Assembly (NCBI RefSeq): GCF_902652985.1
Contig: NC_047016.1
Coordinates: 39,804,001-39,868,000 of the forward strand
Length of the DNA stretch: 64,000 nucleotides
From: Pecten maximus
Lineage: Eukaryota
Reading direction: 5' to 3'
The position numbers are program-made. Below, one piece after another: positions 1-30,000 of this stretch (its first letter is position 1; the number at the start of each line of letters is the position of its first letter).

Positions 1-3000
1 AATAGAGTCCATCAGCGTAGACACATACGTCTCCCTCCGTGCAAGGCTCGACAGCGTCCAATATATCACACCCATTGACGCCCGCCTTTGTGTAATTACC
101 TGTATATATGCATAAAGGAACATATCTTAATGAATTTATTGTTTTATGCTTTGGAGCAAACGTTTTAAAAGTGGTTAAAAGTCAGTCACTTATAGTTTAA
201 GTTTTGTTCTTATCTTTATTTTCCCACATTAATAGCCCTGGTTGCAGGGTAATATATAGAGGTTACACAATGAGTGGTTGTTAGATATGGAATTTATTTC
301 ACACGAGTAAGTTATTTTTTAAAAGTTGCCAAAAACACTCGCTTTGTTGGATATGGAATTTATTTCACACGAGTAAGTTATTTCTGAAAAGTTACAAAAG
401 ACACGAGATTTAGCGAGTGTTTTATGCAACTTTTAAAAAATAACTTACTAGTGTGAAATAAATTCCATATCTAACAATTTCGAGTCGTGTGACCTGTTTC
501 TACCACAATAATATCGGCTTGAATCAAAGGGAAACTTGGCCAAGTATAATTTCGCGTATGCAAATAAAGTGTACCGGTGACGTCATTAGATTATTGATGA
601 CGTCAATAACAATTGCAGCTTGGGTCAAAGTTCACCGTGTTAGCCAATCAAAATGCGTACATAGTTTATACCACGTGTGGTACAAACAGATTGTTAATAA
701 ACAGCTGTAATGATTAACTGATGGTCTGAGAGTTGAATAACACAGGGTATTGTGGTAGAAAAAAAAATTATTAACCCAATGATAGCATATTTCACGAGGG
801 TTTTCGCCGAGGGAAATATGACATAAGAGAATAAAAAGATAAACATTTGTTGCCACATATTTCTTCTTGTCTTTGTCGTTGTATAACGTTATAGGCTATT
901 TGGCTCAACAGTACCTAACGTACCCTATTATATTTCTTTATACAAAATTGTTATTGTTTCTTTATCTGTCGACGTTTTCAATATTTATATCACACTTAGT
1001 TGGAGCATATTGAAATAAATTTACGCTGCACAAACGTTTTTTTAGAAATAATTTATGTAAACAATATATACTAATCAGTAAAATTGTAGTGTTTATAAAA
1101 ATCTATAAACAGAATATCAACAAAATCATCATTATTACTAGATTTTTGTATTTGTTTTACCAATTAGATTTTTACTAAATTGTAATTTATGATTTGATAC
1201 TTACGGTAAACAGAGGTAAGGTCCTGTAATCCGTACACAATTACGGGGATTGTTTGACCTCCCGCGTAAAATGGTTCTCGTTCGAATGTGATGTCCTGAA
1301 TGGCCTTAATCAGACGATTCACCACATCCGAGTTGTTGACCACATATAGTTCATGGTACACTACGAGCGAGCCTGCCCTGTAGCACACAATATACGAATA
1401 ATGTGTAAATCATTTCAAAACTTGCATATATAGGTAGCCTACTATTTGCTTATAATGAATACACTTTCAAGTATGAGTTCAATACCTTCTCAAGTCAGAC
1501 ATGTCATACATAAAAATACAATATAACGCGTAACATTTGCTTTCTTTTAATTCTAGTTACTGGGTGATTCCTAACCAAGAAAGTACAAACATAGCATGAC
1601 ATTCAGCTAACTATTAAAACATAACAATTTTAACTTAAAAATTAAAAAAAAAAAAATAATAATAATAATAATCTTCAAAACTATCGCGATATATATATAT
1701 ATATACAAAAAAAAATTTTTCCCGGCTACCATATGATTATGATTTTTTTTGTCTTATTATAACGACTCTCGTTTAACCAAATCTTTGATTAAATGTATGA
1801 TTTTTCCTTGTATCATGACAAATTCAATAATTCATCTTCTTACTACGAAGAACATTAAATTTAGAGACCACAAATCATTTCTTATCAGCACCGGACTTTG
1901 TTTTATATATTATTGCAAACCACCAGTATATATAATAACGCGAAATAACTGAACGACACAACAAACTGTAATTTATTATAGAAAATGTACATTCCATGTG
2001 GTTTTTGTTTTCAGTATAGTGATACAGAGGAGACTAAGACAGTAAATATTCCAAACATATTTATCAAATCCTACATTGTCAACTCCTTTATGCTATATTT
2101 AACAATTGCTGTATCAGGAAAAGGCGATTTTCACGTGGACGCTACTTCGTTTTAGATGATATTTTAAAATACAAATAACCCGAATCTCATTAATGAATTT
2201 CTTTGATTTAATAATAACAAATTCTAAAAGTTAAAGAGGCTTACCCGCAGACGGACCGGTAAACGGCACATCTCCGATCACTAAATAAACTTTCTATGTG
2301 ACAAAATTAGAGGCTTTCCGACTTTATTTCTTGAAAACAATTACATCATATGTATTTAAAAGACGTTTTAAAACTCAACCTGAGAGGGAAATGTATGGAA
2401 TATAACGGCAAATCTTCTTTGTAAATCGCCGCTGCCTTTGAAGTTATCACTGTGCGGTACTGTGCACGTGCTTGTTTCTTTGATGTGTCAATCAAATTAT
2501 ACTCAACTTTATAGCGGGGACTTATTGCGGGTTGCGATTAAATAAATAATATTTAAAAAATGAGGTTTTAATATCACTTTTCAGCGTTTTATAAGGAAAA
2601 TAAAATGAAAAACTCAACAATTCCAACTATCTGTCATGTGTAAAAAATCTTTTTCTATTAGCGAATTTTTCTGATCTCTCTGCGGGCAAGCCTCTCTAAT
2701 GTATGTTAAAAAAATTAACATTAAGTTAATATATGTAAAACGATACATATATGACGTAACCTACCTAATATCGGTTAGTCTAACACCTTTGAAGTCTACT
2801 AAGGTTCTGTTGTAGGCGTCAGTGAACTGAAATACAAAACGGCAGGAGAAATGTTACTTAACATAAAACACAGATGATTGACATAAGACGTATTAGCTCC
2901 ATGTCATGTACTTCACAAACAAACATCTTGATATAACTAGGTGTGTGTGGTATCTGCATTTTGCACCATTTTAAAAATTTGAGTGAAGTAGTATGCATTT

Positions 3001-27000: not shown

Positions 27001-30000
27001 GATAAAACCCCAAGGAAGCCGCTAGAACGCTAATTAACTTTGGCGTTACGCACGTGCATACTTACAAGAACATTTATATAAACCTATATTATCGGGTACG
27101 TACATTTCTACGGCAGGGGACTAATCAGTTATGCAAATGGAGTGAATGGAAAGCTGTTAGGCTGGACGTTTTGTTTGACCTTATCTCGACGGCAATTGAT
27201 AAACTGGTATCTAAAAATTTATATTATTACCATAAATTATAATATTTGGGACTGAAGCTAATTTTCCTTATGTAATATTCCTGTATGTTAAGTGTATTGC
27301 ACATATATACTAGGCAATTTTTGCATCATCTTAATTTTCATGATATTTGCATTATGGATACTTAAATACGTGAGTCTTGAGCAATTAAGATCATATTCCA
27401 CAAATATATGGAAATATCTATTAAATCATTTTAAGGCCACATATATACAAGGTTGTTTGAAGTAACTTTGGGGGAAAGTTTGTCAACTGGCGGGTCGTTA
27501 CAAAAAGAGACTGACCGTAAAAACAATGTTATGATTAAGAAATAAATCCTCAATTAACTAAGTTGAATGTTTAGAGTTTTGTCAATATCGGGATACAATC
27601 ACATTCGAGCGAGAATTTCATTAATTAATTAAATATTTACACAAATCCCCCCCCCCCCCCCCCCCCCCCCCCCAGATTAACTTGTGAAACTTTAGCTTAT
27701 GTTTTTATATACACATACTGAGAGGCTGTTGTATTCCTGATTCGTAGTAGGCAGAGGCACCGCCGGCGTCAGCAAATCGGACGACTGTTGCACGGACAAT
27801 GACAAATCGCCTTGGTCTTCTCCAAACGCAAAGAATCCTGGAGATGTGGCTGGAATTAATACAAAAATATCTAGCTGTGATATTATAGACTAAAACAACA
27901 CACAATTTTGTCCAAGATGCTAGAAATTACACCTTTTGTAACGACACCTGAATAGTACCCCTCCGTGACTGAGACAGTATAATATCGTCCCTGTGTGACT
28001 GAGACAGTATAATATCGTCCCTGTGTGACTGAGACAGTATAATATCGTCCCTGTGTGACTGAGACAGTAAAATATCGTCCTGTATGACTGAGACAGTATA
28101 ATATCGTGCCCGTGTGACTGAGACAGTATAATATCGTGCCCCGTGTGACTGAGACAGTATAATATCGTCCCCGTGTGACTGAGACAGTATAATATCGTCC
28201 CCGTGTGACTGAGACAGTATAATATCGTCCCTGTGTGACTGAGACTGTAGAACACCCCCCCCCCCCCCCCCCTCGCTTGTAAATGAGACAGTAGAATGTC
28301 CTCCATTTGTAATTGAAACAGTATAATGTTATCCTTTTGTGGTTGAGACAGTCGAATATTGCCCCGCTACGAATAATACAGTAGAATGTCACCCGTTTGT
28401 AATGGTGACAGCCAGGCGTCGCTTCTTTATGAATGAGACTTTGAACAAGGTGATTTTCGTCCATTTCTAGAGTTGACTTGATAGTGAATATTAAAAATTT
28501 ATTTTTCAATGCATTCATTTGGTTTTCACTCTAAATGATGCTTTTCATATTGATCATTCAAAAGCAGTACCTAGAAACTTTGTGAAATACCACTGCTCGA
28601 TCTGACCACCCAATAGTCTTTAACGCTGACAGCACAAGTTAAAAAGCTTTTAAATGAGATTTGAAAAATACGAAATTTCAGTATTGAGAAATCGTTTCTG
28701 AGATATACCTCCATCTCTAAGGAAGTGTCGACATTTCAGTTTGTGCTCTACATGGAGACGTATACCCGGACCCGACCTCTATATAAAGGTCCAGAATTAG
28801 TTAAACAAGTATCTCTCTTTCAATACGTACGCAACGCGTCACGTGTCAAACTATGTCCGTCGTCACGTGTCAAACTATGTCCGTTCTGGATCTCTCCACC
28901 AACCAATCCACGTTATTTTTACAATAGCAGAATTTATCAGAAAATGAGAGAAAAAAAAATACAATTTAGATTACATTCATATATGAAATAATCTCGACGA
29001 AAGACAAAAAACAACAAAATCGACTAACTATCCTCCCTTGTATAATTCAATATTATGCCCATATAAGCAAGAATGTGTAAAAGCAGTAATATTTCCAGAA
29101 ATATCCATCAGAATACGAATATTTGTCAAATATCCCAGAATTACTGGCACGTAGACTGCCAACCCCCTGTGGTCATGCTACATTTGTCAAGCGCACCTTT
29201 GACAGCGCGTGGCCACGATGTGGACGCACGTGAATAATGGAGGAACTATTTTAGATCTGTACATTTTCTGCCACTTATCATTTGAGTGCGAATTTTATTT
29301 TGAGAGGAATTTGGAGGATAGCTGGGAGGTACTGACCATCTTCCCTACTTCATTACGACCTAAGGTAAGTGTGTTGTCCTCCCTACTTCATTACTACCTA
29401 AGGTAAGTGTGTTGTCTTCCCTACTTCATTACGACCTAATGTAAGTGTGTTGTTCAGATCATGCAGTGTATACTACTTTACACGTGTGTTTGCCTGGAAG
29501 GTTGTTGGAGTGCAAGCAAGTGTGACAGTCGCACGAGCTTGTATACATTGTAGGTCAGTGTCGGTGCCCGTCAAAGCACAAGTCAAAATATCGGCACTTC
29601 CTTCAATACGACGACCGTAACAAACTGTAACCACAAGGGAACATCTCGAAAACGATTTCTGAATACTGAGACTTCGTACATATTTTAAAATCTCAATTGG
29701 AAGCTTTTGAACTTGCATTGTCAGCACAAGTTGGCATCCCATCTCCTTTACGCAGCACATGCACAGATTCGATCAGTCCACAAGTGCCTGACTCGTATCA
29801 TATAATAATAACATATAAGAGTACATAAATGGATATGTACTATTATATGTTATTATTATGTAAAACGAGTCCGGCACCTGTGATAGGATCAACACTGACA
29901 ACATCACAGTAGAACAATGTTTTGAAAAGAGCACACATCGCAGAGCTGACCGGTGGTGTACATAGCACAGGGGCCTGATAATTTGAGAGTCTTCTTGTAT

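What the first reader, a model, noticed from the sequence alone, without database searches (positions are those of the whole stretch)
1205..27849. One mucin combining the MUC4-type NIDO-AMOP-VWD (GDPH) module with a SEA (GSLVV) module
Seen: one phase-consistent spliced frame carries GDPH (exon 23191-23436) and, after about 24 EGF-like modules, a SEA domain with RAGSLVV (exon 1205-1377). Known: vertebrate MUC4 has NIDO-AMOP-VWD with GDPH but no SEA, while MUC1/3/12/13/17 self-cleave at SEA G|SVVV-type sites and lack NIDO-AMOP-VWD. Inference: a chimeric mucin with two potential autoproteolysis sites, which could release the glycan brush and the EGF stalk separately. The TM segment is not in the window. 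Related invertebrate mucin-like proteins exist, so how new the architecture is remains untested.
Basis: partly seen in the sequence, partly recalled or inferred. Interest (0 to 1): 0.68.

Follow-up and report, generated by a model that had tools for sequence, protein, structure and literature searches.

The report
Scallop MUC4-like mucin with SEA
This is a scallop-type gene for a large membrane-anchored mucin that joins a MUC4-like front half to a long chain of EGF units and a SEA domain next to the membrane; the layout is real and tidy, but a similar one has already been described in sea anemones.

Summary
On the minus strand, 35 exons (27849 to 1) have AG/GT borders, consistent phases and no stops. 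They are colinear with two public scallop proteins, XP_069119594.1 and XP_060067948.1. The window is taken for a pectinid scallop, not human.

- **Domains that pass Pfam cut-offs:** NIDO, VWD (starting FGDPHF), C8-3_MUC4 and EGF hits in 18 of 18 array exons. There are 24 EGF-like modules by cysteine count.
- **AMOP:** Pfam does not detect it.
- **SEA:** the module spans three exons (3327-3206, 2826-2765, 1377-1205) and reads RAG|SLVV. The exons alone give no Pfam hit. The contiguous orthologue module scores 19.9 bits, below the 26.4 cut-off. Homology is supported by an exhaustive search (10 of 10 non-self hits are Pfam SEA proteins), a profile comparison (97.7%) and a whole-window control.
- **Mucin domain:** a 2645-residue Thr/Ser/Pro exon (39609-31672) is phase-compatible with the NIDO exon.
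- **Cleavage:** untested. One orthologue lacks the SEA serine.
- **Novelty:** NIDO-AMOP-VWD plus a C-terminal SEA is in print for sea anemones (PMC9080433), so this is a new, molluscan member of a known kind.

The parts
31672..39609 (-). Mucin (PTS) exon: 7938 nt, phase 1 to 1, 2645 residues, 0 stops, T 49% S 14% G 13% P 10.5%; built of a 42-nt repeat. Its link to the NIDO exon is inferred.
   Evidence: The donor CAG|GTTGGT at 31672 leaves 1 nt (G), which with CC at 27849 gives Ala. It is phase-compatible with exon 1.
25496..27849 (-). NIDO domain, exons 1-3 (27849-27719, 26752-26426, 25694-25496).
   Evidence: Pfam NIDO 37.1 bits (cut-off 25) on the exon-2 ORF and 15.6 bits on the exon-3 ORF. 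The orthologue P0002 scores NIDO 51.9 bits over profile positions 1-184 of 186.
23992..25087 (-). Cys-rich segment in the AMOP position, exons 4-5 (25087-24813, 24193-23992); 10 Cys. Family not confirmed.
   Evidence: No Pfam hit to AMOP on the exons or on the contiguous orthologue stretches. Atlas gave no usable hit. PDB gave no hit.
21226..23436 (-). VWD domain, exons 6-8 (23436-23191, 21991-21857, 21420-21226), with no cysteines. GDPH codons lie at 23425-23414.
   Evidence: Pfam VWD 30.5 and 26.3 bits (cut-off 22.9) on two exon ORFs and 59.4 bits on the contiguous P0002 stretch. PDB matches to the VWD starts of FCGBP, MUC5AC, MUC2, MUC5B and VWF. 0 Cys.
20660..20905 (-). Mucin-4-like C8-3 domain, exon 9.
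   Evidence: Pfam C8-3_MUC4 33 bits (cut-off 25), and 37.1 bits on P0002.
19915..20501 (-). Exons 10-11 (20501-20387, 20007-19915); possibly Ig-like, unassigned.
   Evidence: Only weak sub-threshold hits: Big-like, Big_9 and He_PIG.
18134..19218 (-). Exons 12-13 (19218-19052, 18295-18134): two EGF-like modules judged by cysteine pattern (5+7 Cys).
   Evidence: No Pfam hit at E<=0.001; weak EGF hits on P0002.
3744..15788 (-). EGF array, exons 14-31: 22 modules. 14 single 6-Cys exons are mostly calcium-binding EGF; 4 double exons each hold an 8-Cys EGF plus a calcium-binding EGF. All exons are phase 1 to 1.
   Evidence: phases, Cys counts. Pfam EGF_CA/cEGF/FXa_inhibition/EGF_3 hits in 18 of 18 exons.
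1205..3327 (-). SEA-type module in three exons (3327-3206, 2826-2765, 1377-1205), together a 357-nt phase 1 to 1 cassette. The G-S codons of RAG|SLVV lie at 1373-1368.
   Evidence: exons. (SEA homology). (the G column is the last residue of the cleaved chains 8hc0_B, 6bsb_A and 2acm_A).
1..99 (-). Cys-rich juxtamembrane exon (RNYTKAGVNGCDILDAVEPC...), cut by the window edge. The TM and tail lie beyond the window.
   Evidence: The orthologues continue into one TM-like 19-mer.
40974..49917 (-). Upstream 45-nt repeat array (unit TTTTDVPTTTSTAGV) with a non-repeat gap at about 46.9-48.4 kb. An N run (40471-40970) lies just downstream of the array. It may be a further mucin domain, but the Thr-rich frame is broken many times as assembled.
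50051..50053 (-). Candidate start codon, followed by a signal-peptide-like hydrophobic stretch and then Thr/Ser-rich sequence. Inferred only.

Best explanation
This is a pectinid (scallop-type) gene for a type I membrane-tethered mucin of the MUC4 kind that also keeps a juxtamembrane SEA domain.

Layout, from the outside in: a Thr/Ser/Pro glycan brush of at least 2645 residues; NIDO; a Cys-rich segment in the AMOP position; a cysteine-free VWD that begins GDPH; a MUC4-type C8-3 domain; a small unassigned segment; 24 EGF-like modules, mostly calcium-binding, forming a stiff stalk; a SEA-type module reading RAG|SLVV; a short Cys-rich piece. The TM helix and tail lie outside the window and are seen only in the orthologues.

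Likely working (inferred, not shown). The Asp-Pro bond of GDPH hydrolyses by itself in the secretory pathway, as in MUC4, FCGBP and SUSD2. Because this VWD has no cysteines, the two halves would stay together only by the shared beta-sheet. The SEA module, as it folds, strains the Gly-Ser bond so that the serine attacks it. That would leave a non-covalent heterodimer that mechanical pull on the brush can separate, shedding the ectodomain without tearing the membrane.

Shown here: exon structure, phases, domain homologies and motif positions. Inferred: the PTS exon belongs to the same transcript; both cleavages occur; shedding follows.
For: Gene model:
- 35 exons, all with AG/GT borders, phases consistent, 0 stops.
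- Colinear with XP_069119594.1 (33 HSPs) and XP_060067948.1 (27 HSPs) at 62-92% identity.

Pfam above cut-off on window exons:
- NIDO 37.1 bits, VWD 30.5 and 26.3 bits, C8-3_MUC4 33 bits.
- EGF families in 18 of 18 array exons.

GDPH:
- It sits at the VWD start and aligns with the GDPH of FCGBP repeats. Chain 8r0t_C begins at the aligned Pro.
- It is kept in 3 of 3 pectinid sequences.

SEA:
- The only Pfam family hit by the contiguous P0002 module is SEA (E 8.5e-4).
- The exhaustive phmmer search of 1.84 billion representatives gave 10 non-self hits, and 10 of 10 are Pfam SEA proteins.
- hhalign of the scallop-only profile against those SEA segments: 97.7%, E 2.4e-12, with the G-S columns superposed.
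- Atlas top 3 clusters are SEA (0.85-0.87; a lead only).
- Control against all 1876 window ORFs: the SEA exons rank 1, 2 and 5 and are colinear in the profile.

Placement:
- SEA, then a Cys-rich piece, then the TM, in the orthologues.

PTS exon:
- Same strand, 3.8 kb upstream, phase 1 to 1, and its donor is compatible with the acceptor at 27849.

Mechanism background (passages read):
- PMC10880436: GDPH Asp-Pro self-cleavage; MUC4 is cleaved there.
- PMC10556640 and PMC9564314: SEA strain-driven G|S cleavage; fragments stay associated and are separated by force.
Against: SEA:
- The window's SEA exons give no Pfam hit alone.
- The contiguous P0002 module scores 19.9 bits, below the 26.4 cut-off. 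The P0001 module gives no SEA hit at all.
- Neither full-length orthologue gets VWD, AMOP or SEA from Pfam at E<=0.01.
- phmmer of the module against PDB is not significant. The scallop-only profile against PDB is not significant either (best SEA entries E 0.95 and 1.4).
- BLASTP of the last SEA exon against two SEA proteins finds nothing.
- The phmmer E-values come from summing 2-8 weak stretches per protein. Single stretches scored at most about 21 bits when re-run, and some are near-identical repeats.
- The SEA segments used were chosen because they matched the module, so those statistics lean in its favour.
- The PDB hits are driven by the true SEA rows.
- No fold could be predicted.

AMOP: not detected by Pfam, Atlas or PDB.

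Cleavage: the A. irradians orthologue has G-N and one extra Ala at the SEA site. By PMC10556640, both changes should impair cleavage.

Transcript:
- There are no transcript data.
- The orthologue models are computational. They lack the PTS region and a signal peptide.
- The link from the PTS exon to the NIDO exon rests on phase and position only.
- The upstream 45-nt array is frame-broken as assembled.
Confidence: 0.7

Rival explanations
1. The architecture is as described, but the SEA-type module is a non-cleaving structural spacer, as some SEA domains are. Only the GDPH site, if any, is processed.
For: The A. irradians orthologue reads RAAGNLIV, with no Ser nucleophile and a one-residue insertion next to the site. 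The module is divergent, at 19.9 bits, below Pfam's cut-off. According to PMC10556640 (section 8, read), insertions beside the site strongly impair cleavage and nucleophile changes impair it.
Against: The window and Ylistrum balloti keep R-A-G-S-[LI]-[VI]-V. All 10 aligned verified SEA segments have G-S in the same columns. The G column is where the cleaved chains of ADGRF1 and MUC1 end.
Confidence: 0.35
2. The NIDO-to-SEA gene is not a mucin. The Thr/Ser/Pro exon(s) upstream belong to a separate neighbouring gene or are untranslated repeat DNA, and the protein is an EGF-rich adhesion or matrix protein like the coral 'mucin-like' skeletal protein.
For: Both public orthologue models start at or just before NIDO and carry no PTS region. 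The 45-nt array further upstream is frame-broken 17 times in 133 units. Phase compatibility alone has a one-in-three chance. The coral mucin-like protein is described with NIDO, AMOP, VWD and EGF in its C-terminal part (PMC3748352, passages read).
Against: The 7.9-kb exon is open in a single Thr-rich frame with 0 stops. It has an AG acceptor and a CAG|GT donor, lies on the same strand 3.8 kb upstream, and both its ends are phase 1, like the NIDO acceptor. The orthologue models have no signal peptide, so they are truncated at the 5' end. No other domain-bearing ORF lies between.
Confidence: 0.25
3. The SEA exons belong to a different transcript from the EGF and VWD exons.
For: None found beyond the absence of transcript data.
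Against: The intron before the first SEA exon is 416 nt. That exon starts in phase 1 without a start codon. The three SEA exons form a phase 1 to 1 cassette that fits the phase 1 to 1 EGF exons. Two orthologous gene models contain NIDO and match the last SEA exon over 100% of its length.
Confidence: 0.03

Closest known systems
Sea-anemone mucin4-like proteins with a C-terminal SEA domain (Actinia tenebrosa and three other anemones; PMC9080433, passages read)
   Same: NIDO, AMOP and VWD, followed further C-terminally by a single SEA domain and a TM. These are invertebrate proteins. The paper already draws the conclusion that MUC4 may descend from a SEA-bearing ancestor.
   Different: They are cnidarian and transcriptome-derived. 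The text does not mention GDPH, cleavage, molluscs or a long EGF stalk ('EGF' occurs once, in the introduction). The supplementary domain tables could not be opened.
Vertebrate MUC4 (recalled; MUC4 cleavage at GDPH cited from PMC10880436, passages read)
   Same: PTS brush, then NIDO, a Cys-rich segment, a VWD with GDPH at its start, a MUC4-type C8-3 domain (Pfam PF23263), EGF modules and a TM.
   Different: MUC4 has two or three EGF modules and no SEA (recalled; also stated in PMC9080433). Here there are 24 EGF-like modules and a SEA-type module. Pfam does not detect AMOP here.
Public scallop orthologues XP_069119594.1 (Argopecten irradians, 'uncharacterized protein') and XP_060067948.1 (Ylistrum balloti, 'mucin-like protein')
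   Same: Colinear exon for exon, at 62-92% identity. They have the same domain order and show the TM and tail missing from the window.
   Different: They are computational models without a PTS region or signal peptide. Their precomputed Pfam lists show only NIDO and EGF families. Y. balloti lacks one EGF exon (6571-6455). A. irradians has G-N instead of G-S.
MUC3/MUC12/MUC13/MUC17-type membrane mucins (recalled)
   Same: A juxtamembrane SEA with a G|S[VI]VV-type motif, flanked by EGF-like modules, then a TM.
   Different: They have no NIDO or VWD block and only two EGF modules. No sequence-level comparison was made here.
Coral skeletal 'mucin-like' protein B3EWY9 (PMC3748352, passages read)
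   Same: An invertebrate protein with NIDO, AMOP, VWD and EGF in the order of MUC4.
   Different: No SEA is mentioned in the passages read. It was found in skeletal matrix. It was not compared by sequence here.
Solved SEA domains: ADGRF1 (7wxu, 8hc0), TMPRSS11D (8vis; also 2e7v, 'Transmembrane protease'), MUC1 (6bsb, 2acm)
   Same: The joint profile aligns the window's R-A-G-S with their R-x-G|S, and the N-terminal chains end at that G.
   Different: The scallop-only profile does not reach them significantly. The fold was not modelled.

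Membership tests
MUC4-type module (NIDO / AMOP / VWD-GDPH / C8-3) | NIDO domain | tested here: met
   Pfam PF06119 scores 37.1 bits against a cut-off of 25 on the exon-2 ORF, and 51.9 bits over the full profile on orthologue P0002.
MUC4-type module (NIDO / AMOP / VWD-GDPH / C8-3) | AMOP domain between NIDO and VWD | tested here: not met
   No Pfam AMOP hit at E<=0.1 on the exon ORFs, at E<=1 on the trimmed exons and the contiguous P0002 stretch, or at E<=10 on P0001. 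Atlas gave no usable hit. PDB gave none. A 10-Cys segment occupies the position, and its likeness to AMOP is recalled only.
MUC4-type module (NIDO / AMOP / VWD-GDPH / C8-3) | VWD domain beginning with GDPH | tested here: met
   Pfam PF00094 scores 30.5 and 26.3 bits (cut-off 22.9) on exon ORFs and 59.4 bits on P0002. GDPH aligns to profile start positions and to FCGBP GDPH sites.
MUC4-type module (NIDO / AMOP / VWD-GDPH / C8-3) | Mucin-4-like C8-3 domain after VWD | tested here: met
   Pfam PF23263 scores 33 bits against a cut-off of 25 and 37.1 bits on P0002.
Mucin | Long Pro/Thr/Ser domain in the same polypeptide | tested here: inconclusive
   A 2645-residue PTS exon lies on the same strand and is phase-compatible with exon 1. 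There is no transcript evidence, and the orthologue models lack it.
Membrane-tethered mucin | Signal peptide and single TM helix | not testable with these tools
   The TM is outside the window. The orthologues have one TM-like 19-mer after the SEA module. A candidate signal peptide at 50053 is inferred only.
SEA domain (Pfam PF01390) | Score at or above Pfam's gathering cut-off | tested here: not met
   Window exons alone: no hit. Contiguous P0002 module: 19.9 bits against a cut-off of 26.4, E 8.5e-4. P0001 module: no hit. The joined window module was not tested, because the joined step was left out.
SEA domain (Pfam PF01390) | Homology to verified SEA domains by more sensitive comparison | tested here: met
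   10 of 10 non-self phmmer hits are Pfam SEA proteins. hhalign gives 97.7%, E 2.4e-12. In the window-wide control the SEA exons rank 1, 2 and 5 of 1876 ORFs. Caveat: the comparison set was chosen by similarity to the module.
SEA domain (Pfam PF01390) | Alpha/beta sandwich fold with the G-S in the strained hairpin | not tested
Self-cleaving SEA (MUC1 type) | G|S-[VIL]-[VI]-V motif at the position of the known scissile bond | tested here: met
   The window reads R-A-G-S-L-V-V. In alignment A1 it stands in the column of the invariant G-S of the 10 verified segments. That G is the chain end of 8hc0_B, 6bsb_A and 2acm_A. The motif is not conserved in A. irradians (G-N).
Self-cleaving SEA (MUC1 type) | Observed autoproteolysis | not testable with these tools
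   This needs protein chemistry.
Calcium-binding EGF array | EGF_CA-type modules with six cysteines, one per phase 1 to 1 exon | tested here: met
   Pfam EGF-family hits in 18 of 18 exons.

The most novel reading that the evidence does not exclude
This scallop gene, together with the sea-anemone mucin4-like proteins, preserves the ancestral metazoan membrane mucin. In this reading a single protein carried both the NIDO/VWD-GDPH block and an EGF-flanked juxtamembrane SEA. Vertebrate MUC4 would then be this protein after loss of SEA, and the MUC3/12/13/17 group would keep its membrane-proximal end. That makes the two vertebrate membrane-mucin classes relatives rather than independent inventions. 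It also implies a bilaterian protein with two working self-cleavage sites, giving three non-covalently held pieces.
Probability: 0.25. Interest if true: 0.55.

Novelty: new member of a known kind. Interest (0 to 1): 0.35.

Why it matters
Vertebrate membrane mucins are usually split into the SEA class and MUC4, which are treated as having distinct origins. A bilaterian gene that carries both kinds of module in one clean exon chain adds a second phylum to the sea-anemone observation. It also gives a genomic, intron-phase-level view. The SEA module is a 357-nt phase 1 to 1 cassette sitting in a run of phase 1 to 1 EGF exons, which is the arrangement exon shuffling would produce or remove.

It offers a natural test case for whether two different self-cleavage chemistries (Asp-Pro hydrolysis and Gly-Ser acyl shift) operate in one mucin. 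Close relatives differ at the serine (G-S versus G-N).

For annotation, Pfam-based pipelines currently label the orthologues only with NIDO and EGF and miss VWD, C8-3 and SEA.

The finding does not open a new kind of system.

Tried and rejected
- **Pfam on SEA and AMOP-position exons alone:** nothing.
- **Pfam on full-length orthologues:** only EGF families and NIDO. VWD, seen on shorter pieces, is missed on the long proteins.
- **All three word-index protein searches:** the SEA exon with 'longer' lengths, the P0002 SEA region and the P0002 AMOP-position region returned only the two scallop orthologues (2 of 17, 2 of 196 and 2 of 490 candidates). The spread of the architecture in other phyla could therefore not be surveyed.
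- **PDB by sequence:**
  - P0002 SEA module: not significant.
  - Scallop-only SEA profile: not significant.
  - AMOP-position exons: 0 hits.
  - NIDO exon: nothing.
- **Atlas for the AMOP-position segment:** no usable hit.
- **BLASTP of the last SEA exon against P0004 and P0005:** nothing.
- **A recent five-exon super-repeat in the EGF array:** considered because module types recur as four single exons plus one double, three times. Rejected as a recent duplication because pairwise identities are only 13-51%, with no consistent partners.
- **Assembly error as the cause of frame breaks in the 45-nt array:** not settled. 11 of 12 short units share one change and 4 of 4 long units share another, which could be true variants or systematic error.
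- **Other checks:**
  - Other ORFs between and around the gene: no Pfam family.
  - Rfam: 0 matches.
  - tRNA: 0.
- **Not searched:**
  - Genome contigs holds only bacteria and archaea and was not used.
  - Supplementary tables of PMC9080433 and PMC3748352 are closed.
  - PMC5326570 (divergent SEA domains) is not held.

Full report
**What the window is.** The window is AT-rich (33-38% G+C over the gene) and has one N run, 40471-40970, which I left alone. The best protein matches are to scallops. XP_069119594.1 (Argopecten irradians, 'uncharacterized protein', 1986 aa, stored as P0001) matches the last SEA exon at 82% identity. XP_060067948.1 (Ylistrum balloti, 'mucin-like protein', 1929 aa, stored as P0002) matches at 77%. 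I take the contig for a pectinid scallop of another species, not for human.

**The observation.**
- Exon 23436-23191 follows a CAG acceptor, ends before GTAAGT and reads (g)FLFGDPHFTTLDG....
- Exon 1377-1205 follows a CAG acceptor, ends before GTAAGT and reads (r)AGSLVVYHELY....
- Exon 3327-3206 reads (g)FTGRMFRLLTSFVYTVTDTQALENSSSSYYQELLTDFTEG.
- That exon ends in phase 0, whereas exon 1377 needs two bases. So a middle exon had to exist. I found it at 2826-2765 (FTDAYNRTLVDFKGVRLTDI plus AG) by local alignment with the orthologues. Its last two bases and the G at 1377 give the Arg of 'RAGSLVV'.

Splice borders were placed using the tblastn blocks of the two orthologues and a coordinate-only search for AG/GT pairs that keep the orthologue's residue count. 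Four junctions were checked by eye. This gives 35 exons from 27849 to the window edge. All have AG/GT borders, the phases match throughout, there are no stops, and they hold 1895 residues. The exons were translated one at a time.

**Domains, exon by exon.**
- *NIDO:* 37.1 bits (cut-off 25) on exon 2, with a weaker continuation on exon 3.
- *VWD:* 30.5 bits on the GDPH exon (profile positions 4-53) and 26.3 bits on exon 8 (positions 93-156), against a cut-off of 22.9. A contiguous 600-residue stretch of P0002 gives 59.4 bits over the whole profile.
- *C8-3_MUC4* (PF23263, 'Mucin-4-like C8-3 domain'): 33 bits on exon 9 against a cut-off of 25.
- *GDPH context:* the VWD exons contain no cysteine. 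The GDPH exon matches the starts of VWD domains in solved FCGBP, MUC5AC, MUC2, MUC5B and VWF structures. One FCGBP chain (8r0t_C) begins exactly at the residue aligned with the Pro of GDPH, which is the known cleavage point. GDPH is kept in all three pectinid sequences.
- *AMOP position:* the segment between NIDO and VWD (exons 4-5, ten cysteines) is where MUC4 has AMOP. Pfam's AMOP model does not detect it in the exons, in P0002 or in P0001. The Atlas and PDB gave nothing. Its cysteine pattern reminds me of AMOP, but that is recall, not a test.
- *EGF array:* exons 14-31 are all phase 1 to 1. Fourteen carry six cysteines and four carry fourteen (an 8-Cys EGF plus a calcium-binding EGF). Pfam EGF families hit 18 of 18 array exons.

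**Is the last module a SEA domain?**

Against:
- The three exons alone give no Pfam hit.
- The contiguous module of P0002 scores 19.9 bits, E 8.5e-4, below the 26.4-bit cut-off, although SEA is the only family hit. The module of P0001 gives no SEA hit.
- Sequence searches of PDB with the module or with a scallop-only profile are not significant.
- BLASTP of the last exon against two SEA proteins finds nothing.

For:
- An exhaustive phmmer search of 1.84 billion representatives with the P0002 module found 10 non-self proteins at E<=0.001. All 10 are multi-SEA proteins by Pfam, with E from 7e-18 to 6e-109. They come from fish, a newt, a ray, a snail and octocorals. The matches fall inside their SEA domains.
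- A profile of scallop sequences only aligns to a profile of one SEA segment from each of those proteins at 97.7% probability (E 2.4e-12, 68 columns). The scallop R-A-G-S lies on their invariant R-x-G-S.
- As a control inside the window, that SEA profile was run against all 1876 stop-to-stop ORFs of 18 residues or more on both strands. The first SEA exon ranks 1 (E 0.0018, profile 12-43), the last ranks 2 (E 0.017, profile 57-81) and the middle ranks 5 (E 0.4, profile 34-61). This is the right order along both the profile and the DNA.
- The Atlas's three nearest clusters are SEA clusters at 0.85-0.87, which the tool rates as a lead only.

Caveats:
- The phmmer E-values sum several weak stretches per protein. 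Single stretches scored at most about 21 bits when re-run, and some are near-identical repeats.
- The comparison segments were picked because they matched.

Taken together I put SEA homology at about 0.85.

**The cleavage motifs.** In the joint alignment the G of RAG|SLVV falls in the column where the N-terminal chains of cleaved ADGRF1 (8hc0_B) and MUC1 (6bsb_A, 2acm_A) end. The motif fits G|S-[VIL]-[VI]-V. It is not conserved across the family: Y. balloti has RAGSLIV, but A. irradians has RAAGNLIV, with no serine and one extra residue. According to PMC10556640 (section 8, read), nucleophile changes impair MUC1 cleavage and insertions beside the site strongly impair it. SEA cleavage is therefore plausible in the window's species but not a family constant. 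GDPH cleavage is the better bet by conservation. PMC10880436 (passages read) describes Asp-Pro self-cleavage in VWD domains under secretory-pathway conditions and states that MUC4 is cleaved there. Neither cleavage can be shown here.

**Same transcript?** The SEA exons cannot stand alone.
- The intron before them is 416 nt.
- The first SEA exon begins in phase 1.
- The three exons add up to 357 nt and form a phase 1 to 1 cassette, like the EGF exons around them.
- Two orthologous gene models carry NIDO and match the last SEA exon over its full length.

Those models are computational. They have one TM-like segment after the SEA module but no N-terminal hydrophobic stretch, so they are cut short at the 5' end.

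**The mucin domain.** Upstream, a single exon (39609-31672, AG acceptor, CAG|GT donor) is open for 2645 residues in one frame. Its composition is T 49%, S 14%, G 13% and P 10.5%, and it is built of a 42-nt repeat. It starts and ends in phase 1. Its last base plus the CC at 27849 makes an Ala codon, so it can splice directly to the first NIDO exon across a 3.8-kb intron full of minisatellites. This is position-and-phase evidence only.

Further upstream lies a 45-nt array (40974-49917, unit TTTTDVPTTTSTAGV, 98% alike). It changes its Thr-rich frame about twenty times. Of 133 units in 47037-40974, 116 are 45 nt, 12 are 44, 4 are 46 and 1 is 97. The short and long units mostly share the same one-base change. 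As assembled, it is not one open mucin exon. At 50053 an ATG opens a hydrophobic, signal-peptide-like stretch that runs into Thr/Ser-rich sequence. It may be the true start, but the frame problem and the N run leave that open.

**Comparison with what is known.** The front half is MUC4-like: PTS, NIDO, VWD with GDPH, a MUC4-type C8-3 domain, then EGF and a TM. The membrane end (EGF, SEA, a short Cys-rich piece, TM) recalls MUC3/12/13/17 (recalled). The combination is already in print. [quoted passage not shown] It argues that this supports an earlier proposal (cited there as Zaretsky & Wreschner 2013) that MUC4 lost a SEA domain.

Other papers, passages read:
- PMC3748352 describes the coral 'mucin-like' skeletal protein with NIDO-AMOP-VWD-EGF.
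- The introduction of PMC4948705 reports, citing Lang et al. 2007, that Xenopus was the deepest-branching animal where a Muc4-like protein was identified.
- PMC11431876 detects 'mucin-4-like' protein in octopus skin mucus.

Full-text searches found no paper linking NIDO or MUC4-like proteins with SEA in molluscs.

**Verdict.** The architecture is real, except that AMOP is unverified and SEA rests on profile-level evidence. The two cleavages and the separate release of brush and stalk are inference. The architecture is a new molluscan member of a kind already described in Cnidaria, and its orthologues sit in public protein sets with incomplete domain labels.

Still unchecked:
- transcript structure;
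- the fold of the SEA module;
- the spread of the architecture across phyla, because the three word-index searches found only the two scallop orthologues;
- the closed collections (metagenome and viral contigs) and the closed paper supplements.

Noticed in passing
window 40974-49917 (minus strand): A 45-nt tandem array (unit TTTTDVPTTTSTAGV, 98% matches) has a Thr-rich frame that shifts about 20 times. In 47037-40974, 17 of 133 units are not 45 nt. 11 of 12 short units share one TT-to-T change and 4 of 4 long units share one A-to-AA change. These could be real higher-order repeat variants or systematic assembly error.
   Followed up: partly
window 50051-50053 and 49964-50053 (minus strand): An ATG preceded by an acceptor-like tttcag opens MEKPVRGITIWIIAASLIQITNQSTTS..., a signal-peptide-like start that runs straight into Thr/Ser-rich sequence. 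It is a candidate true start of the mucin.
   Followed up: partly
window 10922-11394: A 64-nt unit is repeated 7.4 times. The unit is a copy of the 3' end of EGF exon 19 plus its donor site and the start of the intron, so several spare donor sites follow the real one.
   Followed up: no
window 16377-18081; 27965-28249; 30063-31256: Intronic minisatellites: 47 nt x 36, 30 nt x 9.5 and 33 nt x 37. They are open in several frames and could be mistaken for coding repeats.
   Followed up: no
window 50101-51552 (plus strand): Three adjacent ORFs look like the tail of a non-LTR retrotransposon. The last ORF hits Pfam zf-RVT (31.8 bits, cut-off 27.5). It lies immediately upstream of the candidate mucin start.
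   Followed up: partly
window 52568-53911; 54056-55155; 56934-59457: Three further tandem arrays upstream of the gene: 45 nt x 30, 32 nt x 34 and 23 nt x 110. No Pfam family was found in nearby ORFs.
   Followed up: no
window exons 14-28 (15788-5900): Module types recur as four single 6-Cys EGF exons followed by one 14-Cys double exon, three times over. Pairwise identities are only 13-51%, so this is an old pattern rather than a recent duplication.
   Followed up: yes
orthologues P0001 and P0002 (public proteins): Pfam run on the full-length proteins (about 1900-2000 residues) reports neither VWD nor C8-3_MUC4. A 600-residue stretch of P0002 scores 59 and 37 bits for them. Public Pfam-based labels of these proteins are therefore incomplete.
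   Followed up: yes
window 6571-6455 (exon 27): This calcium-binding EGF exon has a counterpart in the A. irradians orthologue but none in the Y. balloti model. This may be copy-number variation in the stalk or a skipped exon in that model.
   Followed up: no
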